Shown here piece after piece: positions 4,231 to 62,745 of a stretch of 64,000 nt of DNA. The stretch is from Candidatus Chisholmbacteria bacterium RIFCSPHIGHO2_01_FULL_52_32 (GTDB taxonomy: Bacteria; Patescibacteriota; Microgenomatia; UBA1400; Chisholmbacteraceae). Every line of letters starts with the position of its first letter. Within the stretch, counting starts at the first letter, position 1. Made by a program: the position numbers and the translations under genes. The notes under the pieces were generated by a model, which saw only the letters and a list, made by a program, of their open reading frames with translations, was not told the DNA's origin and searched no databases. The DNA lies in the NCBI GenBank assembly GCA_001816585.1, contig MHCJ01000003.1, positions 11,013 through 75,012 on the forward strand, in the 5' to 3' direction.

Positions 4231-4352
<122 letters not shown>

Positions 4353-4357
<5 letters not shown>

Positions 4358-7277: not shown

Positions 7278-7453
7278 TATTCCTTGTCTTTTCTGTACTT
7301 TGCAAACTGGCGCTCACGAGCCTGAAACTTGGCGCGGCAGATGAGGCAGAAACTCGGGGGTTTAAGACCCTTTTGGCGGTAAAAGTCCTGTTCGCCATCG
7401 GTCCAGATGAATTCGTTACCGCAGTTTTGGCAGATAAGGGTGAGGTCGGACAT
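7277..7453 (-). CDS. Small zinc-ribbon protein (58 aa); not in the ORF track because it is under 60 aa
   Basis: Reverse-complement translation gives MSDLTLICQNCGNEFIWTDGEQDFYRQKGLKPPSFCLICRAKFQAREQFAKYRKDKE*, with two CxxC pairs. ATG at 7453-7451, TAG at 7279-7277. This is more plausible than the overlapping 7243..7464 track ORF. Confidence 0.5.
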   Translation of the reverse strand: MSDLTLICQNCGNEFIWTDGEQDFYRQKGLKPPSFCLICRAKFQARERQFAKYRKDKE

Positions 7454-8897: not shown

Positions 8898-11513
8898 ATG
8901 GAGATATACGATCATCGAAAGATAGAACGTCGCTGGCAGAAGATGTGGAAAGAAGCGAGGATCTATCAGCCTGATCTTCGCAAGGCAAAGAAACCGTTCT
9001 ACAACCTGATGATGTTTCCGTATCTCTCGGCAGAAGGACTGCATGTCGGGAATATGTATGCCTTTACGGGGGCGGATATCTATGGGCGATTTAAGCGGAT
9101 GCAAGGCTATGATGTGTTCGAACCCATCGGGTTGGACGGGTTTGGGATCCACTCGGAAAATTATGCAATGAAGATCGGGAAGCATCCGGCGGAGCAGGCG
9201 AAGCTGTCTCAGAAGCGGTTCTACGCGCAACTCCATGACATCGGTAACAGTTTTTCTTGGGAGAATACCCTTGAGACTTTTGATCCTGTCTATTATCGGT
9301 GGACACAGTGGCTGTTTGTGCAGATGTTTAAACACGGACTCGCGGTGCGTAAAAAGGCGATGGTGAATTGGTGCCCTTCATGCAAGACCGTTTTGGCGGA
9401 TGAGCAGGTGGAGGGAGGGGTGTGTGAGCGGTGCGGGACACCCGTTGAGCGCCGAGAGATGGCGCAGTGGTTTTTCCGGATTACCGACTTTGCAGAGCGG
9501 TTACTTGGGAACCTTGAAACGCTCAATTGGCCGGAGAAGATCAAAATCGCACAGAGGAACTGGATTGGCAGGAGGGATGGCGCAGAGGTTGGATGGGTGG
9601 TCGATGGCACCAGAGAGGTTCTTTGGACCTTCACAACGCGTCTGGACACGATTTTTGGGGCGACGTTCCTTGTTATAGCTCCTGAGCATCCCACAGTAGC
9701 GGATCTGATGAGTTCAAAGTTTAAAGTGAAAAGTGAAAAGTTAGAAAATGTAAGAGTCTACGTCGAGGCGGCGCTCAAGAAAACGGAGCAGAAGCGGAAG
9801 ACGACAGAAAAAGAGAAGACGGGCGTTGATACCGGTTTGAGGGTGATCCATCCTCTGACCGGCGGGAAAATTCCAGTCTGGATTGCCGATTTTGTGTTGA
9901 TGGATGTGGGAACCGGTGTCGTCATGGGTGTGCCTGGACACGATCAGCGCGACGGGGACTTTGCCCGGAAGCACAATCTCCCGATTATCAAGGTCATCGA
10001 TGTTGGTGGGCGGGAGGTGCAGCAGGCAGCGGTTACGGAATTTGGCAGTTTGGTGACTTCCGGGGAATTTGACGGGCTTTCTTCTTTGGAGGCGATGGAG
10101 AGGATTCTTGAGCGTTTAGCGTCGCAAGGAACGGGAAAAAAGAAAGTTGCGTACCACCTCCGTGACTGGCTGATCTCAAGGCAGCGCTATTGGGGCCCGC
10201 CGATCCCGATGATTTTTTGTGAGCAATGTGCCAAGGAGGGAAGGGCCTTTAAAGGAGACTCCCTGAAAGGTACCCTGAAAGGTATGGCGGGGTGGTGGCC
10301 GGTTCCTGAAGGGGATTTACCGGTTGAACTTCCTTTTGTTTCAGACTACAAGCCGATTGGGGACGGAAGATCTCCTCTTGAGAGGGCGTCGGAATCCTGG
10401 CTCTACACCAAGTGCCCCAGGTGCGGGGGAAGGGCCAAAAGAGAGACGGATGTGTCGGATACCTTCCTGGACAGCTCGTGGTATTTTCTTGCCTACCCAA
10501 ATCTTGGAACGGAGGAGTGGACCCGAAAAAAAATTGCTAAATTGATCAATGGTCAAATTGCTCGTAACAATACAACAATGCAACCATTTAACAATACGGT
10601 AACCCGCCGGTGGTTGCCTGTCGATGCGTATATCGGTGGCGCGGAGCATGCGGTGTTACACCTTTTGTACAGCAGGTTCGTGACGATGGCGCTTCATGAC
10701 TGGGGTTACCTTTCCTTTGAAGAGCCTTTCCCGTTTTTGTTCAGCCACGGTTTGATCATCAAGGAAGGGGCGAAGATGAGCAAGAGCCGGGGGAATATCG
10801 TCACGCCCGATGATTATATTCGAAAGTTCGGTTCTGATACATTAAGATCTTATTTGATGTTTATAGGACCATATGATCAAGGAGGAGATTTTCGCGATAC
10901 GGGGACTCTAGGGATGTACCGCTTCCTGATGCGAGTCTGGCGACTCTATCAGGAAAGTTCGAAGTTGGGGGAGAAGACGGATCCGAACCTGGTCGGGCCG
11001 CTGCACCGTATGACCAAGCAGGTGACAGAGGATCTTGAAAAGTTCCGCTTCAATACGGCTCTGGCAAAATTGATGGAGTTTATCAATGCATGGGAGGACG
11101 GGAAAATGCTTTCTTGGGATGACGCAGGGATTTTCTTGAGACTATTGGCTCCGTTTGCGCCGCATATGAGCGAGGAATTGTGGCACAATTTGCCGAAAAA
11201 ACATACCTGCCTCGATTTGAATTGTATTCTTAAAGGGTTGCGGGGAAAGCCATTTTCTCTCTCGAGCATCCATGTGGCTCCTTGGCCGGCGTATGATGTA
11301 ACGCTGGCGGCATTTGGCGATCTCGAAATCGTGGTTGAGGTCAACGGAAGGGTGCGGGGGAAGATTTTGGTTGCGGCCGAGAAGGCGAACGATCGTTCGG
11401 AGACTATTCGTCTGGCTCAAAAGATACCAGGAGTGGCAGCTCATCTCTCGGGAAAACAGATAACAAAGACGATTTGGGTGGAGGGAAAACTGGTGAATTT
11501 CGTTGTCTCGTAG
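8898..11513 (+). CDS. leuS: Leucyl-tRNA synthetase
   Basis: HVGNMYAFTGADIYGRFKRMQGYDV (HIGH region), editing domain, KMSKS motif. SD aaggag lies upstream of the ATG at 8898. Contains an in-frame heptamer tract and a REP-like insert. Confidence 0.92.
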   Translation: MEIYDHRKIERRWQKMWKEARIYQPDLRKAKKPFYNLMMFPYLSAEGLHVGNMYAFTGADIYGRFKRMQGYDVFEPIGLDGFGIHSENYAMKIGKHPAEQAKLSQKRFYAQLHDIGNSFSWENTLETFDPVYYRWTQWLFVQMFKHGLAVRKKAMVNWCPSCKTVLADEQVEGGVCERCGTPVERREMAQWFFRITDFAERLLGNLETLNWPEKIKIAQRNWIGRRDGAEVGWVVDGTREVLWTFTTRLDTIFGATFLVIAPEHPTVADLMSSKFKVKSEKLENVRVYVEAALKKTEQKRKTTEKEKTGVDTGLRVIHPLTGGKIPVWIADFVLMDVGTGVVMGVPGHDQRDGDFARKHNLPIIKVIDVGGREVQQAAVTEFGSLVTSGEFDGLSSLEAMERILERLASQGTGKKKVAYHLRDWLISRQRYWGPPIPMIFCEQCAKEGRAFKGDSLKGTLKGMAGWWPVPEGDLPVELPFVSDYKPIGDGRSPLERASESWLYTKCPRCGGRAKRETDVSDTFLDSSWYFLAYPNLGTEEWTRKKIAKLINGQIARNNTTMQPFNNTVTRRWLPVDAYIGGAEHAVLHLLYSRFVTMALHDWGYLSFEEPFPFLFSHGLIIKEGAKMSKSRGNIVTPDDYIRKFGSDTLRSYLMFIGPYDQGGDFRDTGTLGMYRFLMRVWRLYQESSKLGEKTDPNLVGPLHRMTKQVTEDLEKFRFNTALAKLMEFINAWEDGKMLSWDDAGIFLRLLAPFAPHMSEELWHNLPKKHTCLDLNCILKGLRGKPFSLSSIHVAPWPAYDVTLAAFGDLEIVVEVNGRVRGKILVAAEKANDRSETIRLAQKIPGVAAHLSGKQITKTIWVEGKLVNFVVS

Positions 11514-18451: not shown

Positions 18452-19777
18452 ATGGATGAACGGTACCGGAAATTCATTTTTCCTTCCGGTTTAACACTTC
18501 TGACGGTGCCGATGCCGGGGGTCGAGAGCGTGACCATTCTTGTGATGGTGCGGACCGGGAGCCGCGACGAACCTTCTGAGCTTTCGGGGATTTCCCATTT
18601 TCTCGAGCACATGGTCTTTAAGGGAACGGCGAAGTATCCTTCGGCCTTGGCGTTGACCTCGGCGATTGATTCAGTGGGAGGGGAATTCAATGCCTTTACA
18701 AGCAAGGAGTTCACCGGTTTTTACGTCAAGGTGGCAAGCGCCCATCTTGACAAAGGGATTGATGTTTTGTCTCAGATGCTCACAGCGCCGAAGCTTTTGG
18801 CGAGCGATATCGAGCGGGAGAAGGGGGTTGTGGTTGAGGAAATTAACCTTTATGAGGATTTACCAACGCACAAAGTTTCCGATGTGTTTGACCGGCTGAT
18901 GTACGGAGCCAATGGCTTGGGAAGAGAGACAGCGGGGAGCAAAGAAACAGTGAAGTCATTGTCGAGGGAAGACCTGCTCCGTTACCTTCGCGGGCGCTAC
19001 ACGGCGACGCGGACGGTGGTTGGTGTAGTCGGGGGGGTTGGTGGGATCGATGGAGAAAAGGAGATGCGAAGGATTCGGGAATCGGTCGGAAGAGCCTTTG
19101 CACCACTGGGCAAAGATCGTATATCTCGTTGGGGAAGTCCGGTTGAGCTGCCTCGTCGGTCTTCCGTTGCCCTCCATCCCAAGAAGACCAACCAGGCGCA
19201 TTTTATCTTGGGTGTTCCGGCGTTCCGGCGAGGGCATCGGGATCGGTTTGCCTTGGCGGTTTTGGCAACAATCCTTGGGGGAAACATGAGCTCGAGGCTG
19301 TTTTCGGAAGTCCGCGAGAAGCGAGGCCTGGCCTACTACGTCAAGTCCGATGTCGATATTTTCTTTGATACGGGAAGCATTTCGGTCCATACCGGGGTAG
19401 AGGTGGGTAAAATCGACGAGGCGATTCGGGTTACGCTTTTGCAACTTCGGCTTGCGGCAAACGGGAGCCGGGGACAAGGGATTTCTGCAACGGAAGTGGT
19501 TGCGGCAAAAGATTATCTCAAGGGCCAGTTTATTCTTGATCTTGAAGACAGCCATGAGGTGGCGGATCACTTTGTCCGTCGCTACCTTTTGGAGCAACGG
19601 ATTCTTACCCCAGGTGAGTTTTTGGCAATGATTGACCGGGTGCGACCCACGGATGTGGTACGGGTAGCTAAAACGCTTTTTAATGGGGATGGGCTGCGGT
19701 TGGCGGTGGTGGGACCGTACTCGGAAAAGGATAGACAGCGATGGGAGAGGATGATACAGTTAAAAGTGAAAAGTTAA
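18452..19777 (+). CDS. M16 family zinc peptidase (insulinase/pitrilysin-like)
   Basis: Inverted zinc motif HFLEH plus downstream E. Two-domain M16 architecture. The C-terminal tail ...QLKVKS is encoded by a GTGAAAA/GTTAAAA heptamer tract. Confidence 0.8.
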   Translation: MDERYRKFIFPSGLTLLTVPMPGVESVTILVMVRTGSRDEPSELSGISHFLEHMVFKGTAKYPSALALTSAIDSVGGEFNAFTSKEFTGFYVKVASAHLDKGIDVLSQMLTAPKLLASDIEREKGVVVEEINLYEDLPTHKVSDVFDRLMYGANGLGRETAGSKETVKSLSREDLLRYLRGRYTATRTVVGVVGGVGGIDGEKEMRRIRESVGRAFAPLGKDRISRWGSPVELPRRSSVALHPKKTNQAHFILGVPAFRRGHRDRFALAVLATILGGNMSSRLFSEVREKRGLAYYVKSDVDIFFDTGSISVHTGVEVGKIDEAIRVTLLQLRLAANGSRGQGISATEVVAAKDYLKGQFILDLEDSHEVADHFVRRYLLEQRILTPGEFLAMIDRVRPTDVVRVAKTLFNGDGLRLAVVGPYSEKDRQRWERMIQLKVKS

Positions 19778-19799
19778 AAGTGAAAAGTTGGGAGAAGGG

Positions 19800-20930: not shown

Positions 20931-20965
20931 ATTTAAAGACCTTGAAAGGTCTGACCTTTCAAGGT
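20931..20965. repeat. REP palindrome doublet (ACCTTGAAAGGTCTGACCTTTCAAGGT)
   Basis: Perfect inverted 12-mers ACCTTGAAAGGT / ACCTTTCAAGGT. The same element recurs at about 21447-21475, 21660-21695, 29668-29703, 39463-39493 and 51815-51852. A variant CCTTTAAAGGAGNCTCCCTGCAAGG occurs at 10252-10285, 20355-20385, 36690-36720 and 51146-51180. Confidence 0.8.
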
Positions 20966-21651
20966 CGGTCGATGGTGAGACCTGGAAGGAATGGGTCCGG
21001 CGTTTCATCCTTGGTTTCCACGAACGATTCGTAGGAGGTAAAGTCGATACTCCCGATTCTTCTTCTCGATTTGAAAAAGGCGAGGATTTCTTTCGGCTGA
21101 ATCCATGCGGTCGTTCGCAGCCCAAGATACTCCGCGTAACTTGAGTAGGGATAGTCTTTGAGCGGTTTTTCCCAAAATTTCATTGGATTTTTGTGGATGT
21201 AGCGACTGAGGTGGAGGAACTGCTCGTTGGTTTCCACAAGTACGGCTTTATACACACTCTCAAATAATGATCCTAATCTTCCGTGTGTCTTGTTGAAGTG
21301 AACAGCATACCGAGTTGCTAGGGACTGCATGAATTGTTTCATCATATTTTTTGTCTGTTGCATTACCAGGAGATGGAAGTGATTTGGCATCAGGCAGTAC
21401 GCGAGCAGCTTGAGTTTCCCGGAACAATTCTTGGGTTGATGCGGTATACCTTGAAAGGTCGAACCTTTCAAGGTGAAGGATTGGACGAGGGCTTGTGGGT
21501 TTGGCGGGGGTGAGAGCGCTGTTTTTAGGATATTTAGGAAGACCTGATAATCTTTTTTGCCGACAAAAATAGATCGTTTCTCAACACCCCGATTGTAAAT
21601 ATGGTAGTACCCACCTTCGACATTGATCTTGCGGGTGTGCTTTCGAGGCAT
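20959..21651 (-). CDS. IS200/IS605-family Y1 (HUH) transposase homolog; REP-associated tyrosine transposase (RAYT)
   Basis: MPRKHTRKINVEGGYYHIYNRG ... LLAYCLMPNHFHLLVMQ (HuH motif) ... catalytic Tyr region. REP copies lie immediately upstream (21660-21695), inside the gene (21447-21475) and downstream (20931-20965). Confidence 0.8.
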   Translation of the reverse strand: MPRKHTRKINVEGGYYHIYNRGVEKRSIFVGKKDYQVFLNILKTALSPPPNPQALVQSFTLKGSTFQGIPHQPKNCSGKLKLLAYCLMPNHFHLLVMQQTKNMMKQFMQSLATRYAVHFNKTHGRLGSLFESVYKAVLVETNEQFLHLSRYIHKNPMKFWEKPLKDYPYSSYAEYLGLRTTAWIQPKEILAFFKSRRRIGSIDFTSYESFVETKDETPDPFLPGLTIDRP

Positions 21652-21699
21652 AATATTTATCCTACCTTGAAAGGTCTGACCTTTCAAGGTTGGTGTTTG

Positions 21700-23874
21700 T
21701 TACGCTTCTTTTATTGTTCTTGAGTATCTTTCGCGGGAGACGCGCAGGACTTTTTCCCGGTTTTGGTTCTTGGAGCGGGGTAAAGGCAGGGTAATGGCAG
21801 GGAAGGGAGCGGAGGTGGCGTTATCGATCGAGAGTTTGATGACGATTTGGTACTTACCGAGGCTCACCAGCTCTTCCTGGGTGTAAACCCCGCCAAATTC
21901 CTTCATCAGGTGCTCGGCGTCTTCGGCACCGACGAGGAAGCCTACCAAGGTTCCTGCATTGCCGAAGATTGCCTTTTCGAGCTCCTCGTTAAGCTGGGCG
22001 ATGTATTGGTTGGCAAGGATGAGGTCCAGGCGGTATTTGCGTGCTTCGGAGAGGATTTTAATGAAGCTCGTTGTCGCAAAGTTCTGGAACTCGTCCACGT
22101 AGAGGTAGAAGTCGCGGCGCTGTGCCTCCGGGATGTTTATCCGGTTCATCGCGGCAAGCTGCATCTTGGTGATGAACATGGCGCCAAGTAGGGCGGCATT
22201 GTCTTCGCCGAGTTTCCCTTGGGCGAGGTTGACGATCAAGATCTTTCCGCTGTTCATGAGTTCCTCTAGGTTCAACGAAGAATGCGGATGGCTGATGATT
22301 TCTCTGATGGTCGGGCTGGTGACGAATTGGCCGACTTTGTTGAGGATGGGCGAGATGGCTTCCGAGCGAAGCTTGGGGTTCATCTGCGCGTACTCCTTGG
22401 TCCAGAACGTTTTGAGGGCATCTTCAGGGAGCCGGTCCACGATTGACTGGCGGAAGCTGTCATCGGTGAGGATCCGTGGCACGTCGACTAGGGTTGAACC
22501 GGGCCGCTGGACTAAGGTGAGGATCGAGTTTCGCAGGATATACTCAAGGCGCGGCCCCCAGGAGTAGTAGTAGAGCTTATAGAAGATGGCAACGATCCCG
22601 GAGGCGACCAGCTCGGCGTGGGCGGGATCGTCGACCTCCAAGGGATTCATCCGGATGACGTGCTTTGTGTCTGAGGGATCAAAGTAGACGACGTCGTTTA
22701 ACCGTTTTGCGGGAATATAGTCAAGCAGTATGTCACAGAGGTCGCCGTGGGGGTCGATGATGGCCAGGCCCTCGTCGTTTCGCATGTCGGCGATTGCGAG
22801 GTTTGCAATCAGGGTTGATTTTCCGGTACCGGTTTTTCCGATGATGTAAATGTGCTTTCTTCGGTCAAGCCGCTTGATGCCGAAGATTTGCATGCGGTTT
22901 TTAAACTCGGTGCGGGCGATGAAGTTGATCTCCCGCTTTTCCTCGTCGGTAAGGTCAATGGCAATCGGTAAGTTCTCCGGCGGTTCGCCGAGGAGGTTTG
23001 AGCCCCAAGCGATGTTGCGGATTTTGGCGAGGGTTAGGTTGGGAAGGTGATATAGTGTGGCTAGTTCTGATATATTCAGATAGTGTTTTGCCGGTGTATT
23101 TGCAAATGTACGGGTGGTGATTGACCTTAGAAATTCCCGTCTGAAAAGGGTGGGGGTTTTGAGCCGGAGGCTGTTTCCCTCGCCGATGGTGAAACTGCCA
23201 TACGAGCCGGCGATGTGCTTCAGGAGCTCTTGGGAGCGGGTTTTGCTGTCGGAATCAGTTACGAGCTTGATGCCTACCCGGAAACCAACCTCCGAGATTT
23301 TTCTTTCAATCAGCTCTTTTTGGGGATGGGCCTTGGTTTCTCCGGGTTGGCCGCCGACGGCTGGCACTCCTTTTTCAACGGCGCTTGCTCCTTTTGATTG
23401 CCAATTTCCAGAGGCAGGAGCCACCAAATACTGGACAAGCATCAGGTCATCGGGCTGGGCTTTTGCCATGGTTCCGAGGATGGCTGCCAACGGATCCACG
23501 TCCGTGAATTCTTTATAGGTTTTGAGGGGAAAATACGATGCTTGCGAGAGTGTGAGCAGGCCGACTGAGGGATTTTTCCACTCGTTCGGAGGCGGTAGGT
23601 ATTCTTTTACGGGGGTGATGATGATTTTCGGAAAGGAAGCGGAGAGTTGGGATTCGAGGTAACCTTGGACGTCCTTCGGGGCAACGACATAAAAGTGGGT
23701 GACTTGATTGATGGTGGCGATTTCGAGTGAGATGGGCTCCGGAATACCGAGGAGCTGTTTTAGAAAGGGCGTACGAAGGTGGGGAAGGGCGGCGAGGAAT
23801 TGGGCGGCGGCTTCGGGGGTTTCTTCGCTGTCGCGGGGAGTACGCAGTTCAAGGATGACGCGATCGGCAGTCAT
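21700..23874 (-). CDS. TraD/VirD4/TrwB-like coupling-protein-type P-loop ATPase with an unknown ~350-aa N-terminal region
   Basis: Walker A IIGKTGTGKST, IDPHGD, Walker B-like FYLYVDEFQNF, C-terminal LILANQYIAQL, consistent with the TrwB_AAD_bind / FtsK-HerA superfamily. The start could be as far upstream as 23976. Confidence 0.6.
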   Translation of the reverse strand: MTADRVILELRTPRDSEETPEAAAQFLAALPHLRTPFLKQLLGIPEPISLEIATINQVTHFYVVAPKDVQGYLESQLSASFPKIIITPVKEYLPPPNEWKNPSVGLLTLSQASYFPLKTYKEFTDVDPLAAILGTMAKAQPDDLMLVQYLVAPASGNWQSKGASAVEKGVPAVGGQPGETKAHPQKELIERKISEVGFRVGIKLVTDSDSKTRSQELLKHIAGSYGSFTIGEGNSLRLKTPTLFRREFLRSITTRTFANTPAKHYLNISELATLYHLPNLTLAKIRNIAWGSNLLGEPPENLPIAIDLTDEEKREINFIARTEFKNRMQIFGIKRLDRRKHIYIIGKTGTGKSTLIANLAIADMRNDEGLAIIDPHGDLCDILLDYIPAKRLNDVVYFDPSDTKHVIRMNPLEVDDPAHAELVASGIVAIFYKLYYYSWGPRLEYILRNSILTLVQRPGSTLVDVPRILTDDSFRQSIVDRLPEDALKTFWTKEYAQMNPKLRSEAISPILNKVGQFVTSPTIREIISHPHSSLNLEELMNSGKILIVNLAQGKLGEDNAALLGAMFITKMQLAAMNRINIPEAQRRDFYLYVDEFQNFATTSFIKILSEARKYRLDLILANQYIAQLNEELEKAIFGNAGTLVGFLVGAEDAEHLMKEFGGVYTQEELVSLGKYQIVIKLSIDNATSAPFPAITLPLPRSKNQNREKVLRVSRERYSRTIKEA

Positions 23875-30392: not shown

Positions 30393-30396
30393 CCCA

Positions 30397-30480
30397 GGGT
30401 ATAGGTTTTAGGGTATAGGGTCTAGGGTTTAGGATAGGGACCTCAGTTTTCAGCCTTCAGTCTTCAGTTTTCAGTTTGTA
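30397..30480. repeat. Heptamer repeat tract (TAGGGTx then TTCAGTC types)
   Basis: gtatagg ttttagg gtatagg gtctagg gtttagg ... tcagttt tcagcct tcagtct tcagttt tcagttt. Confidence 0.75.
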
Positions 30481-31916: not shown

Positions 31917-32608
31917 AGATTGGTTTTAAGCGATCGGATTTGGACGAAGGGTTCCAGGCTAAACTCCGACTCCGGATGGGTAGGGTCGGCATTGACGCGA
32001 ACGGAAACTTTCACGAGCGTTACCGCATTGAGGGGGGCCGGTGTAGACAGCGGATTGGTGGTGGTTTCCACCGGCCAATCTTGGTTGTAGTAGGAGAAGA
32101 CGGGCGATGCTCCGTTTCTGATGTCCTCGGCAACGGTTTTTACCTGTTCGTTCTCCGAGGGATAGGAGACGGGAAAGCCGGTCGGTTGGACCGTTCCCTT
32201 CTTTAGCTCCGTTCCGTCAAGGTAATAGCGGACGTGCTCGATTTGCGGATCCGAGTCGACGTTGGCATAAAAAATAATTTCCTGCGCATCGGCCTTTTCA
32301 AGCGGAAAGGAGCCTGCCTCGGATGGGCGACTGCTTCGAAGCTCGTCGGTGAGCGTTCGCAGGGAAGCATTGGCGTTCTCAATCGTAAAGATCGTCCGGA
32401 GGGAAAAATTCTCGCTCGTTCCTAAGGATGACTGGAGGGCAACCACCGTGCCAAGGAGAGCGACGAAAATCGACATACCGATAAGAATTTCGATCATGGT
32501 AAACCCGGCTCGCCCTTGGCGAGAGTTAAAAGTTAAAAGTGCAAAGTTAAAAGTTGAAGATCGGGTTATACTGTCTTGGAGTTTTGTACTCAATTTTGAA
32601 TTTTTCAT
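31913..32608 (-). CDS. Type IV prepilin-like protein (canonical N-methylation motif)
   Basis: ...QGRAG|FTMIEILIGMSIFVALLG (G-F-T-x-I-E consensus). Best start is ATG at 32608 (MKNSKLSTKLQDSITRSSTFNFALLTFNSR...), not the track's 32863. The leader contains a GTTAAAA heptamer tract. Confidence 0.65.
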   Translation of the reverse strand: MKNSKLSTKLQDSITRSSTFNFALLTFNSRQGRAGFTMIEILIGMSIFVALLGTVVALQSSLGTSENFSLRTIFTIENANASLRTLTDELRSSRPSEAGSFPLEKADAQEIIFYANVDSDPQIEHVRYYLDGTELKKGTVQPTGFPVSYPSENEQVKTVAEDIRNGASPVFSYYNQDWPVETTTNPLSTPAPLNAVTLVKVSVRVNADPTHPESEFSLEPFVQIRSLKTNL

Positions 32609-39328: not shown

Positions 39329-40477
39329 ATGAATGTTGGCATTGACGCCTCAAGGGCATTTGTTTCAGAGCGAACCGGGACGGAGAAATACTCCTTAAAG
39401 CTTCTTGAGGCGTTGGGGAAGGTAGACGATAGGAATCGGTATATCATGTATACTCGTACCTTGAAAGGTCTGACCTTGCAAGGTGGGTCTGGTGGGCGGT
39501 TTGCTGTGCGGGAGATCGGGTGGCCGAGGCTGTGGACCCAAGGAGGCCTGGCCGCCCGCACGTGGGTTGACCGCTTAGATGTTCTTTTTATTCCGGCGCA
39601 CACCCTGCCGGTTCTGCGGCGGCCACGGCTTAAGACGGTCGTCACTATTCATGGGCTCGAGTATGAATATCTGCCGCAGTATTACCAGTTTCCCCAAAAA
39701 GTGTACCTCACGTGGTCCACACGCTATGCCGTGCGGTCTGCTACGCGACTGATTGCGGTTTCCCGCTTCACCGCTTCGGAGCTGGTTTCTCGGATGGGAG
39801 CTGATTCTTCAAAAATCCGTGTGATTCATGAAGGTGTTGATGCACTAGGTTATAGTAAATCATATAGCGATAATGTAAAGCATAGTGTTTTGGAGGGCTT
39901 TGGCGTTCGGAAACCCTACGTTCTGTTTGTCGGAGTGGTTCAGCCGAGGAAGAACCTTGTGCGGCTGGTTGAGGCGTTTTCGCTTACTGTGAACAGACTT
40001 TTGGGAGAAAGAAAGGGGTTTCCGGATCTTACCTTGGTCATTGCCGGAAAGCTTGGGTGGATGGTTGAGGAGACACTAAAGGCCCCGCAAAAGTTCGGGG
40101 TGGCGGATCGGGTGAAGTTTTTGGGCTTTGTGGAGGATAAGCATTTACCTTTTCTTATGCAGGAAGCGGAGCTTTTAGTGCAACCAAGCCTCACCGAGGG
40201 CTTTGGGTTACCGGTTTTAGAGGCAATGGCCGCCGGCACGCCGGTTGTGGCTGCTCGGGCGGGGGCATTGCCTGAGGTCTGCGGGGATGCAGCAATTCTC
40301 GTCGATCCTGTTGACGTTGTTAATATTGCAGATGGTCTGTTTCAAGGGCTGACTCACAAGGAGATGAGAAGAAGGCTGACGAAACTGGGTCTCGAGAGGG
40401 TGAAACAGTTTACTTGGGAAAAGGCGGCACAAAAGACACTTGAAGTGTTGGAAGAAGCGGTGGGGGAATCGAGGTAA
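39329..40477 (+). CDS. Glycosyltransferase family 1 (GT4-type, GT-B fold)
   Basis: The C-terminal EGFGLPVLEAMAAGTPVVA is the signature E-x7-E region of retaining GT4 enzymes. An in-frame REP palindrome at 39463-39493 encodes TLKGLTLQGG. Confidence 0.8.
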   Translation: MNVGIDASRAFVSERTGTEKYSLKLLEALGKVDDRNRYIMYTRTLKGLTLQGGSGGRFAVREIGWPRLWTQGGLAARTWVDRLDVLFIPAHTLPVLRRPRLKTVVTIHGLEYEYLPQYYQFPQKVYLTWSTRYAVRSATRLIAVSRFTASELVSRMGADSSKIRVIHEGVDALGYSKSYSDNVKHSVLEGFGVRKPYVLFVGVVQPRKNLVRLVEAFSLTVNRLLGERKGFPDLTLVIAGKLGWMVEETLKAPQKFGVADRVKFLGFVEDKHLPFLMQEAELLVQPSLTEGFGLPVLEAMAAGTPVVAARAGALPEVCGDAAILVDPVDVVNIADGLFQGLTHKEMRRRLTKLGLERVKQFTWEKAAQKTLEVLEEAVGESR

Positions 40478-45908: not shown

Positions 45909-46030
45909 AGATAGGGGATAGGGTTTAGGGTTTAGGGTTTAGCATTCATTTTCAATCATCAGTCTTCAGTTCTCAGTCATCAGCCATTAGCTATTGGCCA
46001 TCTACTATCTGCCATACGCCATTTGCACTC
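45909..46030. repeat. Heptamer repeat tract (TAGGGTT x3 then CAGTCTT/CAGCCAT/CTGCCAT types)
   Basis: gatagggtttagggtttagggtttagc ... cagtctt cagttct cagtcat cagccat tagctat tggccat ctactat ctgccat acgccat ttgcact. Confidence 0.8.
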
Positions 46031-47615: not shown

Positions 47616-47714
47616 AACATAGGGTATAGGGTTTAGGGTATAGGGTTTAAGTGGCATGTGACGTTTTCGTTTTCACTTTTGACTTTTGAGATTTGACTTT
47701 TGCGTATATTACCC

Positions 47715-50404: not shown

Positions 50405-51145
50405 TCAGTCAACCGAGATTAATCCACGTGCTTGTGAGATCAAACGGGCGACGCTCGCATATTGAGACAGCTTATCATCGGGAATCAACTGACGAAGAGT
50501 CACGGCTTCTTGGGCTAACTGTTGGAGAGGGGGGTCTTCTCTTTTCTGCTTTGATCCTTGATTAAAGTATGTGTTGAGAAGATTCAGCGGAACGATACGA
50601 AGGAGACGTGGGACGTGTTGTATTCCGGTTTGGAAGCTATGTTCAAGTTCATCGATGAGTGTGACGCTCATTCCCTGAGTGATTTCTTTTTTTATGGTCG
50701 ACAATTGGGGGTTTTCGGCGGAAGTTTGTGTCGTTGAGAATTCGTTGGCCGTGCCTCTAGACGGAAAGAGCAAGCTGAAAACAGCTACAGTGTCTGGATG
50801 AATTACGATATGGTTGTTGATCGTGTCGTAGTGACCGCTCTGGAAGCCAAATTTTCTGAGTATCGAATTGTCGGAAACAGCCACTATATCTTCGAGTACT
50901 CCCTCATCGCTATCGAGATTGTAGGCCAGGGGAAGAAAACGGCGAGATACATATTCCCTTTCGCCAAGAACCAAGCCACCACGAATGATAATCCGATCGA
51001 GTCTCGACTGTCGACCCTGACCTAGCTCTGACATGAGCTGCGCCATAGCCTGGGGCTGAAATTCAAGGTCGAACCACTGGGGCGGATATTTCTCGTCGTG
51101 AAGCACTTCCGGAATCGTGAATGGAGTTGGGGCTTCAGGAGTCAT
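50405..51145 (-). CDS. Hypothetical protein (first gene of the REP-flanked cassette)
   Basis: 246 aa, ATG start, no recognisable motif. Confidence 0.35.
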   Translation of the reverse strand: MTPEAPTPFTIPEVLHDEKYPPQWFDLEFQPQAMAQLMSELGQGRQSRLDRIIIRGGLVLGEREYVSRRFLPLAYNLDSDEGVLEDIVAVSDNSILRKFGFQSGHYDTINNHIVIHPDTVAVFSLLFPSRGTANEFSTTQTSAENPQLSTIKKEITQGMSVTLIDELEHSFQTGIQHVPRLLRIVPLNLLNTYFNQGSKQKREDPPLQQLAQEAVTLRQLIPDDKLSQYASVARLISQARGLISVD

Positions 51146-51180
51146 AGATTACCTTTAAGGGAGTCTCCTTTAAAGGTGGG
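51146..51180. repeat. REP variant with a shared GGTGGGTTAGCCGC tail (left copy flanking gene 51181..51810)
   Basis: cctttaagggagtctcctttaaaggtgggttagccgc. The same tail follows the REP at 51815-51858. Confidence 0.7.
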
Positions 51181-51810
51181 TTAGCCGCTGATGTAGCGGG
51201 CGTGGTTTCTGACATTGGGTTCCAGAAGCGCATTGGCCTTTCGAATCTCTTGGCAGACGGTCTCTACAGGTTTATTCTCTGCGTCGATGAGGATTTGTGT
51301 ACGGAAGCGGTTCCATCCGCCATCGCCAACATAAACAAAGAAACGAGGGAGAGTAAGCGACTCAAGTTTGAACTGTGGCTCTCCCCAGGCTTGAATGTAG
51401 ATGTCTGGCCGGAGTGACCCGGTGAATCGTTGGACAGTTTGGTCGTATCTCTTGACGAGGTAGACCGCAAATTGAAGGGCGACATTTGGTGTCCAGTCGC
51501 GGCGGGTAATTTTCCCAGGTCTGGCAAAAGACATGTCATAATCATAAGATCTACTGACCGGGTAAACTGATTCTTCTGAATGAAGTACGTTGAGAAGGTA
51601 GGCATATGCCATGTCGGGCGGTCCTGGGTTGGGACGCATATTCTCAGGATATTCGATTTTTTTGGAGACTAGAGCGAGTGGCTCGGATCCGAAACGGGCG
51701 TAGAAATCCTGGGCAAAGCAAGAGAACACACTTTTAAGGAATGGGTCGTATTCAGCCCGTGAGCGTTCAATGGTGTTGCGGAGTTGGTTTCGTTCGGCGG
51801 GAGTAGTCAT
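51181..51810 (-). CDS. Hypothetical protein bracketed by direct REP copies
   Basis: 209 aa, ATG start. Direct repeats ...AAGGTGGGTTAGCCGC sit immediately at both ends. Confidence 0.35.
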   Translation of the reverse strand: MTTPAERNQLRNTIERSRAEYDPFLKSVFSCFAQDFYARFGSEPLALVSKKIEYPENMRPNPGPPDMAYAYLLNVLHSEESVYPVSRSYDYDMSFARPGKITRRDWTPNVALQFAVYLVKRYDQTVQRFTGSLRPDIYIQAWGEPQFKLESLTLPRFFVYVGDGGWNRFRTQILIDAENKPVETVCQEIRKANALLEPNVRNHARYISG

Positions 51811-51814
51811 GTCA

Positions 51815-51858
51815 GAGTTATCGACCTTGAAAGGTTCGACCTTACAAGGTGGGTTAGC
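51815..51858. repeat. REP palindrome with the GGTGGGTTAGCCGC tail (right copy)
   Basis: gaccttgaaaggttcgaccttacaaggtgggttagccgcggg. Confidence 0.7.
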
Positions 51859-51998
51859 CGCGGGCGCGGGTGATGGCCGCCCCGCACAACTCCTGCCTGA
51901 TCTACGGCGTACCGCCTGTACTCTAAGGCACGTCGTATGCGGGGCAGGCTCGAGAATTTGTCAGATCTTGCCATCGCGAATCCTGCGCGGTAATCGGA

Positions 51999-52625
51999 TT
52001 ATCCTCGAGCTCTTGTAATTGCCGCGATGATGAGGATGATGACGAAGAGGACGACAGCCACAATGACGCCGGCTCGGCGTACTCCGGAGAAGAACCCGCC
52101 TGTTTGGGGAGCGATGGTTGGGCTGGCTTCCGGCTGTTCGACAATCTCTCCGAAGCTTTGGGCTGGGGTAGTTCTGGCTGTCGGCGCGGTCGGTTGGGGA
52201 GTTCCCTCGAGGAAACGGATGGATTGGACTGCCCCTTGCATGACGATATCAGCAGAAGGGGTCCTGGCCCGGTTGCCGCGTTCCCTGGTGACAAGGAGGC
52301 TTGAGAAAGCGGTCTTCGTCTTGAACTGCGCTTTTCCGACCCCAAGGTCACCGAGTTTGGCTGCATTTCCGCCGGTGGTCGGATTAGTCCAGAGCGTATA
52401 GGTGAATTCCTCTGGAGTCGCAGGGTAGATCAGGTCACGACAGCTGACGACGACCTGGTAGTTGTAGTCGGGCATGAGTACCGAGGCGGCAAAGCAGCGG
52501 GCGGCTTGGCCCGTGGTCGAACGAAGCTCGGCGGTACCTTCAGAGGCATGCACGGCACGCGCTCCAGAAAGGAACAGCGCTGCGGCTACAAAAAAAGCGG
52601 CGGACAGAAGCCGTAATGATTTCAT
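51999..52625 (-). CDS. Secreted protein with a C-terminal TM anchor (hypothetical)
   Basis: Signal peptide MKSLRLLSAAFFVAAALFLSGARAVHA. C-terminal AGVIVAVVLFVIILIIAAIT. Confidence 0.4.
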   Translation of the reverse strand: MKSLRLLSAAFFVAAALFLSGARAVHASEGTAELRSTTGQAARCFAASVLMPDYNYQVVVSCRDLIYPATPEEFTYTLWTNPTTGGNAAKLGDLGVGKAQFKTKTAFSSLLVTRERGNRARTPSADIVMQGAVQSIRFLEGTPQPTAPTARTTPAQSFGEIVEQPEASPTIAPQTGGFFSGVRRAGVIVAVVLFVIILIIAAITRARG

Positions 52626-53768: not shown

Positions 53769-53817
53769 CGATCAGCGTGATTGTATCATAGAGGATTTTT
53801 CGGAGTCCATGAGGAGG

Positions 53818-53859
53818 TTTCTTGATTTTGGTTGGGAAAATTGTAGAATTGCGGGCAAG
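53818..53859 (+). promoter_or_regulatory. Conserved promoter/5' region, copy 1 (TTGATT-17-TAGAAT then TGCGGGCAAG ATG)
   Basis: cttgattttggttgggaaaattgtagaattgcgggcaagATG. Near-identical blocks precede the ATGs at 54755 and 55953. Confidence 0.5.
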
Positions 53860-54636
53860 ATGGGTGATCTTGAGGAGGCTAAACAAAGATATCTTGCAAG
53901 GAAGCAGGCCGAAGAAGCTGAGCAGCGAGCTGTGGAGACAGAGAGGAAAGCGGCTCTGGATTTGAAGTCCACGCAAGTGGCTGAGGAGTGGCGTCACCAT
54001 GAAGCAACATTCAAGGATCAGATTCTTCCAGCTCTTGTAGGTATTGAAGATGATTTCTGGAAGAATCATCTTTCTCCTCAAGTATTGGGTCTCTTTGATG
54101 ATGCGGCTAAAGAAATTGCAAGGAGAGAGCAAATAGCAATGAATAGGAGGATATATTTTGATCATGGAGTTGATCTCAGGGTGGAGCGAGCTCCTGATGT
54201 TACAACTGCTTACCAACGATATAAGCGTGACATGACATTGTTAGGACATTACTTGTACGGAAATTATGAGTTCAAAGAAAGACTTGATCTGAAGCATTTG
54301 ATCTCACTTTGGGAAAGTGGTGAGCTTATGCATCTCCCGGTTACCATGCTGGTTAGCTTTGGGAAAGTAGGGAGGCCGATACCCCCAACTATCGATATAG
54401 TCGGTGGGGGCTCAACATTTGAGGTAAGTTTTAGGGTTGAAAGGGATGGGGTTGTTCGTTGGGGTTGGGGAGATCTTTCTGATGAGTTAGGGGAGAGGAA
54501 GTTTCAGGAGTATAACGGAGATTTCCATACGCTCGCCGACCAATTGTGGGCTGGTATTGAAAAACGGATTTATATGAAAACATATAATATTCGAGGAGGA
54601 GTAGCACGTGATGGTGATGAGCAGGGATGGGCATGA
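53860..54636 (+). CDS. Hypothetical protein, paralog A of a three-member tandem family
   Basis: Starts MGDLEEAKQRYLARKQAEEAEQRA (charged coiled-coil-like) and shares the motif IEDDFWKNHLSP with paralogs B and C. The track ORF begins at an upstream TTG (53809), before the promoter. Confidence 0.45.
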   Translation: MGDLEEAKQRYLARKQAEEAEQRAVETERKAALDLKSTQVAEEWRHHEATFKDQILPALVGIEDDFWKNHLSPQVLGLFDDAAKEIARREQIAMNRRIYFDHGVDLRVERAPDVTTAYQRYKRDMTLLGHYLYGNYEFKERLDLKHLISLWESGELMHLPVTMLVSFGKVGRPIPPTIDIVGGGSTFEVSFRVERDGVVRWGWGDLSDELGERKFQEYNGDFHTLADQLWAGIEKRIYMKTYNIRGGVARDGDEQGWA

Positions 54637-54699
54637 GTGCGGGTTATGGGTCCCAAGGTGACCACGGTTCAGGAGCGGATAAGGGATGATGAAGATTGT

Positions 54700-54754
54700 C
54701 TAAAGATAGAGGTTTGTTGATTTTAGTGCAGAAAATTGTAGAATTGCGGGCAAA
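54700..54754 (+). promoter_or_regulatory. Conserved promoter/5' region, copy 2
   Basis: ttgattttagtgcagaaaattgtagaattgcgggcaaaATG, preceded by the conserved ggataagggatgatgaagattgtctaaagatag. Confidence 0.5.
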
Positions 54755-55888
54755 ATGGCTTGGAATCAAGAATCAGAGAGAATGAGGGTCAGGGAGAGAG
54801 AGGTTGATGAGGTCTTAATTACTCACACCGTCGAGCACGTAGTCCGGCTGACTACAGGAGCTGAGTCTGTTGATCCAATATCACGATGGGATGTTCTTCA
54901 GGAACTTGTGATTCCTATCCTAGAGCTTGATTATTGGAGAAGAAACATCACTCCAGAGATTGAAGTCTTACTTCGAAATAATGCGCTTGATCTTCAGGCC
55001 AGAGAGCGCCGTAAGTATGGAGAGACGCTGGAACTCTTGCCTCGATATTTTTCAGCAACAGCGACGGTCCTAGATGAGAGAGACAAAGTAACACTTTTAT
55101 CACGGCTTCAAAATCCCTACCGAGATATGAACCCCTCACAAATAGTTGATTTGTTATCACGAAAGAGAGGATGGGTAATGGAACAATTGGATGAGATGTT
55201 TACTGTCGGGAGAGGGTTTGTTTTTTCTCATGAGAGGTTGCTGGAAGGATTACCGCCCGAAGAATTGCCAGGAACAAGGAGGGTTTGGTGTGTAGGAGTT
55301 CAAGCTGTTGGCGACAGGATGAAAGCCTTTATAGGAAGTGAGGAGACTGACTTTAACCGTCACGTTGCGGCAAATAAAAAATGGGATAGCGCTGGTCTTT
55401 CACGGTGGTTTTCGGAGCATATTCAATCTGGAAAAAAGGGGCATACTTTTTTCCCACTTCAGTGGGATGAAATATATCGAGGAGGCTGGTATTGGAATAT
55501 TGATCAGCCCTCTATTAATAAACCAGTCGAGTTCATAGCAGCGATCTCCCATATAGGATCGTTTTCAGAACTTCTTGTACTTCTTGCAGAGAAAGACAGG
55601 TTTATCACCAAGCCAAAGGTGGTTGTTGTCAAGCCTGAAGAGCAAGAAGCGAAGCAGACACTCACGCAAACTATCTATACCCCAGAATTTGGTCTATCGG
55701 AACCGCCACTCATTTCAGATCCAAGGTTGGCTTTAAATCCTCGAGCACAGATGTTGGCGGCACAAGGGTTTCCGGAATGGAAGATACGGGCAATGTTTGA
55801 TGAGGAGGAGATGGAAATGCGTAAGCGTTCTAGTGGAGATCGCTATCTCCGAGGAGGAGATCACGCGTCGGGAGCGGATAGGGGATGA
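54755..55888 (+). CDS. Hypothetical protein, paralog B
   Basis: 377 aa. Shares LELDYWRRNITP with A and C. Ends ...GADRG, followed by the conserved GATAGGGGATGATGAAGATT block. Confidence 0.45.
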   Translation: MAWNQESERMRVREREVDEVLITHTVEHVVRLTTGAESVDPISRWDVLQELVIPILELDYWRRNITPEIEVLLRNNALDLQARERRKYGETLELLPRYFSATATVLDERDKVTLLSRLQNPYRDMNPSQIVDLLSRKRGWVMEQLDEMFTVGRGFVFSHERLLEGLPPEELPGTRRVWCVGVQAVGDRMKAFIGSEETDFNRHVAANKKWDSAGLSRWFSEHIQSGKKGHTFFPLQWDEIYRGGWYWNIDQPSINKPVEFIAAISHIGSFSELLVLLAEKDRFITKPKVVVVKPEEQEAKQTLTQTIYTPEFGLSEPPLISDPRLALNPRAQMLAAQGFPEWKIRAMFDEEEMEMRKRSSGDRYLRGGDHASGADRG

Positions 55889-55899
55889 TGAAGATTCTT

Positions 55900-55952: not shown

Positions 55953-56681
55953 ATGAGTAGACTTGAGGAAGCGAGAGCTAGAATTGCAGCTCAAGAACAT
56001 GCGGCACAGGAAGCCAGGGAGAAATGGGAGCAAGAGGAAGAGCTACGTAAAAGAGACTTTGAGTCTCTCAAGCCTGAGCTGGAAAGAATTGAGCTCGAAT
56101 TCTGGCGGGCACATGTCCCAGTCCAACTTACTGATCTCTATTCGGAAGTGCGAAGAACAATTGAAGAGAAAGAAGGATTTCAGATGGATGAAGTCATCAG
56201 ATTTTACTATGGGGAGTATTCACTGCATCATGAGGTTGTACGTTACTCTTCTGGTAAACAAGAGAATCGATGGGATAAAATGTATGGTCTCCGAGATGAT
56301 GCGGTTGGATTATGGAGGGAAGGGAAATTAGCCCAGATTCCTTTGCGGAGCGTGTCACTTGAATATATTCATAGCAAGAGAGCTGGCGACTCTGAAACTG
56401 TCAACAGAATACACTTTGAAGTTGGTCAGGATGATAAAGCCACTTGGACTGTGGGTGACGGAAAAAAATATTTCTTTGATCCAGAAAGGGGAATACATGG
56501 GAACTTTGACAGAGATGGACATGGTAAATGTGGAACTTCCAATTCTGATATAGATTTACTCGCGGAGCTTATGATCCCGTTTATTAATGGAAGACAATAC
56601 CATTACGGGATTGATCATTCTCCTGGTCCAAAAGACCGAGCTGGTGATGATGGGAGCTCTGGTGGTCCTGGCGGGCATTAG
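55953..56681 (+). CDS. Hypothetical protein, paralog C
   Basis: MSRLEEARARIAAQEHAAQEAREKWEQEEELRKRDFESLKPELERIELEFWRAHVPVQL; Gly/Asp-rich C-terminus. Confidence 0.45.
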   Translation: MSRLEEARARIAAQEHAAQEAREKWEQEEELRKRDFESLKPELERIELEFWRAHVPVQLTDLYSEVRRTIEEKEGFQMDEVIRFYYGEYSLHHEVVRYSSGKQENRWDKMYGLRDDAVGLWREGKLAQIPLRSVSLEYIHSKRAGDSETVNRIHFEVGQDDKATWTVGDGKKYFFDPERGIHGNFDRDGHGKCGTSNSDIDLLAELMIPFINGRQYHYGIDHSPGPKDRAGDDGSSGGPGGH

Positions 56682-62689: not shown

Positions 62690-62745
62690 ACAGATAGGGT
62701 TTAGGGTATAGGGTCTAGGGTTTAGTGTCTCGAATAAAAGAAAGC
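62690..62745. repeat. Heptamer repeat tract (TAGGGTx) in the rplJ leader
   Basis: cagatagggtttagggtatagggtctagggtttagtgtctcg. Confidence 0.75.

What the first reader, a model, noticed from the sequence alone, without database searches (positions are those of the whole stretch)
50405..51858. Two-gene cassette of unknown function bracketed by direct REP copies sharing a GGTGGGTTAGCCGC tail
Gene 51181..51810 (209 aa) is flanked on both sides by REP elements that both end in ...AAGGTGGGTTAGCCGC (51146-51184 and 51815-51858). The upstream partner 50405..51145 (246 aa) abuts it. Both proteins are motif-less to my eye. REPIN-like doublets around a gene suggest a mobilisable or regulated cassette. 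Two-gene hypothetical cassettes near transposase systems are classic locations for toxin-antitoxin or defence modules.
Basis: inference. Interest (0 to 1): 0.55.

Follow-up and report, generated by a model that had tools for sequence, protein, structure and literature searches.

The report
Two unrelated orphan genes separated by REPs
The repeats around this gene are ordinary worn copies of a small palindromic repeat scattered through this Candidatus Chisholmbacteria genome, and the two genes beside them are unrelated hypothetical genes, not a toxin-antitoxin or defence cassette.

Summary
The 38-nt direct repeat and both ORFs are real, on the minus strand. Each repeat has two parts.

- **Hairpin.** A 27-nt hairpin, ACCTT..AAGG-N5-CCTT..AAGGT, belongs to a dispersed family with 10 copies in the 64-kb window. 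A single-location Y1 (RAYT-like) transposase gene at 20959..21651 is bracketed by perfect copies. Calling these elements REPs is therefore justified.
- **Tail.** The shared tail is not part of the REP. On the coding strand it reads GC-GGC-TAA-CCCA, which is the last codons, a stop and the usual REP flank. The copy upstream of gene B is a 27-nt relic (AAITRARG*) of the 3' end of the neighbouring 208-aa gene, so it is a rearrangement scar.

The two-gene cassette reading fails.

- **Gene A** belongs to a family found only in Chisholmbacteria-like genomes. It sits convergent to a GH57 gene in three species, and its paralogues carry HExxH.
- **Gene B** belongs to a Patescibacteria family of stand-alone genes in housekeeping neighbourhoods, never next to an A-like gene. 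B is absent from the same slot in two relatives.

Neither protein matches Pfam, NCBIfam, PADLOC or PHROGs. With about 7 of about 62 intergenic regions occupied, two REPs bracketing some gene is expected about half the time. Verdict: ordinary REP singlets plus a local gene-turnover scar. Interest is low to moderate.

The parts
50405..51145 (-). Gene A, 246 aa. It belongs to a family found only in Chisholmbacteria-like genomes. A carries DELEH where its paralogues carry HExxH.
   Evidence: ORF. Identical protein named as a Candidatus Chisholmbacteria hypothetical, plus a 44% orthologue. Family alignment with HEIAH and HELEH in P0034 and P0035. Convergent to GH57 in three species. The AF2 model is unusable (pLDDT 34).
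51151..51177 (-). REP1, a 27-nt palindromic hairpin of the GGAGACTCC-loop subfamily. It starts 3 nt after B's stop codon and ends 5 nt before A's ATG.
   Evidence: Inverted repeat I9, 13-nt arms, 92% complementary. Folding energy -10.5 kcal/mol. Family members at 10246, 20357 and 36689. A related hairpin sits at the equivalent junction in L034.
51175..51188 (-). Tail copy 1. On the coding strand it reads GC GGC TAA CCCA CC, that is B's last codons (S, G), the stop codon and the REP 5' flank.
51181..51810 (-). Gene B, 209 aa. It belongs to a small Patescibacteria family of stand-alone genes encoding alpha+beta proteins of about 215-230 aa.
51824..51850 (-). REP2, a 27-nt palindromic hairpin of the GGTCGAACC-loop subfamily. 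It ends 13 nt upstream of B's ATG.
   Evidence: Its closest copy is at 21448-21474, inside the Y1 gene.
51848..51861 (-). Tail copy 2, reading GC GGC TAA CCCA CC on the coding strand. It is the end of the relic below.
51854..51880 (-). Relic 3' end of the 208-aa gene. GCGGCCATCACCCGCGCCCGCGGCTAA translates to AAITRARG*, identical to that gene's real C-terminus but with different codons.
   Evidence: Translation: frame 1. By direct comparison of the sequences, the relic matches the orthologue end in L034 at 24 of 27 bases, L001 at 22 of 27, and the present end at 18 of 27. GC3 of the relic read from its sequence is 8 of 8 coding codons; the present end is 0.11 and the whole gene 0.62.
51881..51998 (-). 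A 118-nt spacer between the present stop of the 208-aa gene and the relic. It contains a long GC-rich hairpin and its origin is unexplained.
   Evidence: Inverted repeat I2. Fold z-score -2.0. No Rfam match at E up to 1. No promoter-like site on the minus strand.
51999..52625 (-). Upstream 208-aa gene. The product shows apparent hydrophobic stretches at both ends (judged by eye, no prediction run) and is conserved in both related species.
   Evidence: 47-50% identity to the L001 and L034 orthologues.
20959..21651 (-). RAYT-like Y1 (HUH) transposase gene, the probable mobilising enzyme of the REP family. It is not part of the cassette.
   Evidence: PF01797, E 4.8e-10, 40.1 bits against a cut-off of 23. 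Motifs YHIYNRG, HFHLLV and RYIHKNP. Every place inspected, across many samples, shows the same neighbours. Perfect REP copies at 20939-20965 and 21664-21690, each about -20 kcal/mol with z -6 to -7.

Best explanation
**What the locus is**
- It is a stretch of a Candidatus Chisholmbacteria (Patescibacteria/CPR) chromosome.
- Four same-strand genes (157 aa, 208 aa, B, A) run towards a convergent GH57 glycogen gene.
- The two intergenic gaps around B each hold a decayed singlet of the genome's REP family.
- That family is a 27-nt palindrome, presumably spread by the single-location RAYT-like Y1 transposase at 20959..21651.

**What the shared tail is**
- The extra shared 14 nt are not part of the REP.
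- They are a gene end (Arg/Ser-Gly-TAA) followed by the CCCA flank that several REP copies share.
- The copy upstream of B is the displaced original 3' end of the 208-aa gene.
- The 'stop-CCCA-REP' junction therefore exists twice because of a past local event, either insertion or replacement of B at a REP-marked junction, or gene conversion between the two junctions. It is not a functional cassette boundary.

**What the genes are**
- A and B are functionally independent genes.
- A is a lineage-specific, zincin-derived protein that has lost the first His of HExxH.
- B is a Patescibacteria alpha+beta protein of unknown role.

**What the hairpins probably do**
- As RNA they most plausibly act like intercistronic REPs elsewhere, as 3'-exonuclease barriers or modulators of translation at the B/A junction.

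**Shown and inferred**
- Shown: the repeat family, the Y1 gene, the relic, the synteny and the lack of A-B co-occurrence.
- Inferred: that the RAYT mobilises these REPs, how B arrived, and any effect on RNA.
For: **REP family**
- Ten hairpin copies lie in 64 kb against 0 in shuffles. The hairpin is the top 12-mer in the window.
- The Y1_Tnp gene has HUH and Tyr motifs and is bracketed by perfect copies. It is found at one location only, across 23 contigs.
- These are the RAYT criteria of PMC5581495.
- The copies around B are weaker hairpins (-10.5 and -14.8 kcal/mol) than the copies flanking the Y1 gene (about -20).

**Tail and relic**
- The tail is unique to this pair.
- REP copies at 36689 and 21665 also follow TAA stops, with CACCAA-type flanks.
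- The relic reads AAITRARG*.

**Comparison with relatives**
- In L034 the 205-aa gene's stop is followed directly by a window-type hairpin and then an A-family gene, with no B.
- In L001 a 369-aa gene plus an A paralogue occupy B's slot.

**Gene B elsewhere**
- B homologues are single genes next to fpg, recG, L32, a pseudouridine synthase or a methyltransferase.

**Chance of bracketing**
- With 7 of about 62 intergenic regions occupied, two adjacent occupied regions occur in 53% of simulations.
Against: - Whole-genome REP copy number could not be measured, because the organism is absent from both scanned collections.
- The two hairpins belong to different subfamilies yet share an identical 16-nt end. 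A simple recent duplication does not explain this.
- Both copies lie just 5' of a start codon on the coding strand, at 5 and 13 nt. A cis-regulatory role would also predict this.
- The 145-nt segment carrying a recoded copy of the gene end is unexplained.
- Three genes in the window are bracketed by REPs against 0.68 expected. Two of the three adjoin the RAYT.
- No expression data are available.
Confidence: 0.7

Rival explanations
1. B is the passenger of a REP-bounded mobile unit. A hairpin lies at each end, as in IS200/IS605-type single-strand 'peel and paste' elements. The unit would be moved in trans by the Y1 transposase, or inserted as a circle by recombination at the 16-bp core GCGGCTAACCCACCTT.
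For: - B's layout resembles that of the Y1 gene: hairpin, then 12-13 nt, then ATG, the ORF, a stop, and a second hairpin.
- The junction sequences are formally what a Campbell-type insertion at a 16-nt core would give.
- B is missing from the same slot in two relatives.
- In another Patescibacterium (L029) the B homologue lies directly downstream of a Y1_Tnp gene flanked by its own palindromes. A similar palindrome follows the B homologue's stop.
Against: - There is only one copy of B in the window, and no presence/absence variation in the six contigs of the A-B locus that were fetched and compared.
- Four other B-homologue loci show no shared flanking palindromes and no transposase.
- To my knowledge, Y1 transposases are not known to make 12-16 nt duplications.
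- REP density alone gives bracketing about half the time.
Confidence: 0.12
2. The 38-nt repeat is a shared cis-regulatory leader, a hairpin that hides a weak ribosome-binding AAGG or acts as an operator. It would co-regulate translation or transcription of A and B.
For: - Both copies sit on the coding strand just upstream of the two start codons. The AAGG(T) of the 3' arm lies 5-13 nt before the ATG.
- Both fold as hairpins, and the inner stem differs between the copies while pairing is kept.
- No separate promoter is detected for B or A.
Against: - The same hairpin occurs at gene 3' ends, between convergent genes, and in frame inside three ORFs. It is therefore not specific to these leaders.
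- The part unique to the pair is coding sequence plus a stop codon, and in the upstream copy it is a gene relic.
- The orthologous A gene in L001 has a different hairpin.
Confidence: 0.12
3. This is the first reader's view: a two-gene toxin-antitoxin or anti-phage defence cassette made mobile by REPIN-like doublets.
For: - Two adjacent genes of unknown function lie on the same strand, 35 nt apart.
- REP-family repeats sit on both sides of B.
- The slot is variable between species.
Against: - A and B do not co-occur in any other locus examined.
- PADLOC, Pfam, NCBIfam and PHROGs give no match above threshold.
- B homologues are solitary genes in housekeeping contexts.
- A is syntenic with GH57 in three species.
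- The repeats bracket only B, not the pair. They are not an inverted doublet as REPINs are defined in PMC3337134.
Confidence: 0.04

Closest known systems
REP sequences with a REP-associated tyrosine transposase (RAYT), as in Pseudomonas and E. coli (Nunvar 2010; Bertels and Rainey 2011; PMC5581495; PMC3337134)
   Same: - Short palindromes are dispersed mainly between genes.
- A Y1/HUH gene at a single location is flanked by the best-preserved copies.
- Decayed singlets occur elsewhere.
- Copies sit close to stop codons.
   Different: - The host is a CPR/Patescibacteria bacterium with a genome of about 1.16 Mb.
- The unit is only 27 nt and is itself built from two 12-nt mini-palindromes.
- No classical REPIN doublets with a spacer of about 70 bp were seen in the window.
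- Three copies lie in frame inside genes.
- The copies flanking the Y1 gene are direct rather than inverted, judged by loop sequence.
Rickettsia palindromic elements (RPEs) inserted in frame in protein-coding genes (own knowledge: Ogata et al. 2000)
   Same: Palindromic repeats whose length is a multiple of three are found in frame inside essential genes. Here they lie in LeuRS, a GT4 glycosyltransferase and the Y1 gene itself.
   Different: - RPEs are about 100-150 nt.
- No RAYT association has been described for RPEs.
- This concerns other copies of the family, not the two around gene B.
IS200/IS605-family elements and their non-autonomous palindrome-associated derivatives
   Same: The transposase is of the Y1 HUH type. 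A gene is bounded by similar hairpins in the same orientation.
   Different: - The B unit and the Y1 gene are each single-copy in the data available.
- The shared 16-nt junction resembles a duplication, which these elements do not make.
- No mobility was observed.
Zincin-like HExxH metallopeptidases (comparison for gene A only)
   Same: Paralogues P0034 (HEIAH) and P0035 (HELEH) carry HExxH in a predicted long helix.
   Different: - A and its orthologue have DELEH and EELEH, so the first His is lost.
- No third metal ligand was identified.
- There is no Pfam or PDB sequence match.
- There is no usable structure model.

Membership tests
REP / RAYT system | Short imperfect palindrome able to form a stem-loop | tested here: met
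   27-nt elements with 12-13 bp stems.
REP / RAYT system | Many dispersed, over-represented copies, mostly extragenic | tested here: met
   Within the window only: 10 copies in 64 kb against 0 in shuffles, and the most abundant 12-mer. Seven copies are intergenic and three lie in frame inside ORFs. The whole genome could not be tested.
REP / RAYT system | A Y1 (HUH) transposase gene flanked by the repeats | tested here: met
   PF01797 at 40.1 bits against a cut-off of 23, with HUH and Tyr motifs. Perfect copies lie on both sides.
REP / RAYT system | The transposase gene is single-copy per genome | tested here: inconclusive
   Every place inspected for the exact protein, in many samples, shows the same neighbours. 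This argues for one location, but diverged paralogues elsewhere in the 1.16-Mb genome were not excluded.
REPIN (REP doublet) | Two REPs in inverted orientation separated by a short spacer and moving as one unit (PMC3337134) | tested here: not met
   The two copies around B are 673 bp apart, share the same 5' flank orientation, and enclose a whole gene.
Toxin-antitoxin module | The two genes co-occur as a pair across genomes | tested here: not met
   Five B-homologue loci lack an A-like gene, and two A-family loci lack B.
Toxin-antitoxin module | A recognisable toxin or antitoxin domain | tested here: not met
   No Pfam or NCBIfam match for either protein. B's fold matches are weak and generic.
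Anti-phage defence system | Match to a known defence protein model, or location in a defence island | tested here: not met
   PADLOC gives only E 0.053 for A and nothing for B. The neighbours are GT5 and GH57 glycogen genes and hypothetical genes.
Integron gene cassette | An attC site with paired R''/R' core sites and a nearby IntI integrase | tested here: not met
   By direct reading, the inverse of the GTTAGCC-like core is absent on the other side of the hairpin. No integrase family appears among the precomputed Pfam hits for genes called between about 4.6 and 56.7 kb, though several of those genes have no Pfam hit on record.
Zincin metallopeptidase (gene A) | An HExxH metal-binding motif | tested here: not met
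   A has DELEH. The motif is present only in paralogues P0034 and P0035.

The most novel reading that the evidence does not exclude
The REP-bounded unit 'hairpin - B - stop - hairpin' is a gene captured and moved by the genome's REP/RAYT machinery, or inserted at a REP-marked 16-bp core. REP junctions in these tiny CPR genomes would then act as gene-exchange slots. This would explain three observations:
- the same slot holds different genes in three related species;
- each variable block is bracketed by that genome's own hairpin (seen in the window and in L001; the third species, L034, has no block and a single hairpin);
- a distant B homologue sits beside another RAYT.
Probability: 0.1. Interest if true: 0.6.

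Novelty: new member of a known kind. Interest (0 to 1): 0.25.

Why it matters
- For the finding as posed, it matters little. The cassette idea dissolves into two unrelated hypothetical genes separated by ordinary REP singlets.
- The by-products are of modest value. One is a REP family with a RAYT-like gene in a Patescibacteria genome. A full-text search linking REP sequences with the candidate phyla radiation found a single paper that merely mentions both terms.
- A clear gene-end relic shows that REP-marked junctions in this reduced genome are sites of gene turnover.
- B now has a confident structure model and defines a small Patescibacteria-specific protein family with no solved close relative.

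Tried and rejected
**Genome-wide copy number**
- I scanned genome contigs and metagenome contigs for TTNNAAGGTGGGTTAGCCGC. Only single, unrelated chance hits came back, so genome-wide copy number stays unknown.

**Origin of the repeat**
- I tested whether A and B are paralogues, which would make the repeat a tandem-duplication remnant. BLASTP gave E 18.
- I tested whether the repeat extends further upstream. An ungapped or gapped local alignment stops at GCGGC.

**Regulatory RNA**
- Rfam gave nothing for 51100-52050 at E up to 1.
- The promoter and terminator scan gave no site explaining the repeat.

**Structures and folds**
- The structure prediction for A failed, with pLDDT 34 from a 4-sequence alignment. 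No fold search for A was therefore possible.
- The afdb50 fold library was unavailable.
- PDB profile searches for both families found nothing meaningful.

**Other checks**
- The weak HMMER hit of B to the 2652-aa protein P0025 is spurious. That protein is a repetitive fn3 and purple-acid-phosphatase-N protein.
- Strain comparison showed no presence/absence variation of B.
- I considered an integron attC reading of GTTAGCC and dropped it, because there is no paired core site and no integrase.

Full report
**Observation**

The two ORFs exist as described, but on the minus strand. A is 50405..51145 (246 aa) and B is 51181..51810 (209 aa).

A 38-nt direct repeat lies at 51151-51188 and 51824-51861. 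It is 76% identical overall, and its last 16 nt (AAGGTGGGTTAGCCGC) are identical. The 14-mer tail occurs nowhere else in the 64 kb.

Read on the coding strand, each copy is GCGGCTAACCCA followed by a 12-13 bp hairpin. One ends 13 nt before B's ATG and the other 5 nt before A's ATG.

**The hairpin is a genuine dispersed repeat**

A self-comparison of the window and pattern searches found ten copies of (A)CCTT..AAGG-N5-CCTT..AAGG(T). They start at 10246, 20357, 20940, 21449, 21665, 29670, 36689, 39459, 51152 and 51825. None were found in shuffled sequence.

Its half-site is the most frequent 12-mer in the window. There are two loop subfamilies, and the copies on either side of B belong to different ones.

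**A RAYT-like gene lies in the same window**

Gene calls for the same contig show a Y1_Tnp gene at window 20959..21651.
- Pfam PF01797 scores 40.1 bits against a cut-off of 23.
- The protein has the YHIYNRG, HFHLLV (HUH) and RYIHKNP (Tyr) motifs.
- Perfect hairpin copies bracket it, each about -20 kcal/mol with z -6 to -7. The copies around B are weaker, at -10.5 and -14.8 kcal/mol.
- The exact protein is carried by at least 23 contigs from many samples, and every place inspected shows the same neighbours.

These are the criteria used to separate RAYTs from IS200 in PMC5581495. Calling the elements REPs is therefore justified.

Calling the pair REPIN-like is not justified. REPINs are inverted doublets with a short spacer (PMC3337134). 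These two copies are 673 bp apart, share the same flank orientation, and enclose a gene.

**The tail is coding sequence, not REP**

On the minus strand the tail reads GC GGC TAA CCCA.
- CCCA, or CACCAA, is the usual 5' flank of several copies. Two other copies also follow a TAA stop directly.
- Downstream of B, the tail supplies B's last codons (Ser-Gly-stop).
- Upstream of B, it is the end of a 27-nt stretch, 51880..51854, that translates to AAITRARG*. This is exactly the C-terminus of the neighbouring 208-aa gene, whose present stop lies 118 nt further upstream.

The relic looks like the original gene end.
- By direct comparison of the sequences, it matches the orthologue ends in two related species better than the present end does: 24 of 27 and 22 of 27 bases, against 18 of 27.
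- All eight of its coding codons end in G or C. GC3 of the present terminal codons is 0.11, and of the whole gene 0.62.

The 'stop-CCCA-REP' junction is thus present twice because of a past rearrangement. How the 145-nt segment carrying a recoded gene end arose is not explained. It has no Rfam match and only a moderately stable fold.

**Comparative context**

The organism is a Candidatus Chisholmbacteria bacterium, according to the names sources give the identical A protein.

A has one 44% orthologue (P0003), a 25% paralogue next to it (P0034), and one further relative (P0035). In all three species the A-family gene is convergent to a GH57 gene of the glycogen cluster. The segment between the 205/208-aa gene and the A-family gene differs between them.

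| Species | Content of the slot |
|---|---|
| L034 | One window-type hairpin only |
| L001 | A 369-aa gene plus the A paralogue, bracketed by that genome's own hairpin (GACAGG..CCTGTC) |
| This window | The relic, REP2, B and REP1 |

B is therefore specific to this lineage at this locus.

**Gene B**

The word-indexed search found only B itself. Exhaustive HMMER found 24 proteins at E up to 0.001.
- One of the 24 is a fragment of B itself (P0001) and one is spurious (P0025).
- The other 22, mostly 215-230 aa, were aligned with B.
- Conserved motifs are DW.PNVALQF, WG and TPNVLNH.
- One cluster carries the name Patescibacteria group bacterium.

Five independent loci show these homologues as single genes. 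Their neighbours are a methyltransferase, fpg and uridylate kinase, a pseudouridine synthase, recG, and L32 or nusB. None has an A-like neighbour. Several have promoter-like sequences by eye and no shared palindromes.

The exception is L029, where a Y1_Tnp gene with its own flanking palindromes lies just upstream.

The AF2 model of B is confident, with pLDDT 89.8 and pTM 0.87. It has no close structural relative.
- Foldseek gave nothing significant against PDB or BFVD.

**Gene A**

There are no Pfam, NCBIfam, PADLOC or PHROGs matches and no PDB sequence match. The model is unusable.

The only clue is an HExxH motif in the paralogues (HEIAH, HELEH). A and its orthologue have DELEH and EELEH at that position. 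This suggests a zincin-derived protein that may be inactive. That is an inference only.

**Is bracketing remarkable?**

About 7 of about 62 intergenic regions hold a REP. At that density, at least one pair of adjacent occupied regions arises in 53% of random placements.

The bracket around B is therefore not informative on its own. The informative feature is the duplicated junction. No presence/absence variation of B was seen in the population contigs available.

**Conclusion**

- The repeats are REP singlets of a REP/RAYT-type system in a CPR genome.
- The shared tail marks a duplicated gene-end junction left by gene turnover at this slot.
- A and B are unrelated hypothetical genes, not a toxin-antitoxin or defence pair.
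- Functional effects of the hairpins on the transcript, such as stabilisation or altered translation near B's stop and A's start, are inferred by analogy with enterobacterial REPs. This rests on my own knowledge and was not tested here.
- A mobile-unit reading of 'hairpin-B-hairpin' remains possible but weakly supported, at about 0.1.

Noticed in passing
window 10246-10270 (LeuRS gene 8898..11513 +): A REP copy lies in frame inside the leucyl-tRNA synthetase gene. It is part of a 20-aa insertion (KEGRAFKGDSLKGTLKGMA) between the CxxC motif and GxxPVPE, relative to T. thermophilus LeuRS. This resembles Rickettsia palindromic elements in coding genes.
   Followed up: partly
window 39459-39483 (GT4 gene 39329..40477 +) and 21449-21473 (Y1 gene): Two more in-frame REP copies translate to TLKGLTLQG and TLKGSTFQG. 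One of them lies inside the RAYT-like gene itself, upstream of the HUH motif.
   Followed up: partly
window 20939-21690: A RAYT-like Y1 transposase gene is bracketed by identical 27-nt palindromes, and its TGA stop lies inside the downstream copy. The next gene, 21700..23874 (-), is a VirD4/TraG-like coupling protein.
   Followed up: yes
window 4316-4355, 7234-7279, 14752-14781, 16192-16224, 15186-15226, 19758-19789, 32515-32555, 30396-30433, 45911-45941, 47619-47649, 62694-62725 and others: Many intergenic regions carry short tandem heptamer arrays: CCCTCAA, GCACGAA, AAAGTTA/AAAGTGA and TAGGGTT/TAGGGTA. The last resembles a plant telomere repeat. The related species L001 has TAGGTTT arrays at 8122-8191.
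   Followed up: no
window 51881-52025: A 145-nt segment lies between the body of the 208-aa gene and its relic end. It begins with a synonymously recoded copy of the last 8 codons (GC3 0.11) and contains a long GC-rich hairpin (51879-51945). Its origin is unexplained.
   Followed up: partly
window 53814-53863 / 54709-54758 and 54672-54697 / 55871-55896: The plus-strand hypothetical genes at 53809..54636, 54755..55888 and 55953..56681 share 26-50 nt repeats at or just upstream of their starts. This suggests shared leaders or N-termini in a small local gene family.
   Followed up: no
L029 2219-2252 / 2959-2992 and 3724-3737: In another Patescibacterium, a Y1_Tnp gene is flanked by 34-nt inverted repeats containing CACCTGGGAGGTG-type palindromes. 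It sits directly upstream of the B homologue P0011. A similar palindrome follows that gene's stop.
   Followed up: partly
L001 4066-4084 and 5972-5990: The related Chisholmbacteria species has its own hairpin (GACAGGGTCCGGCCTTGTC and GACAGGACCCGGCCCTGTC) at the two junctions that correspond to REP2 and REP1. It brackets the variable block (369-aa gene plus A paralogue).
   Followed up: partly
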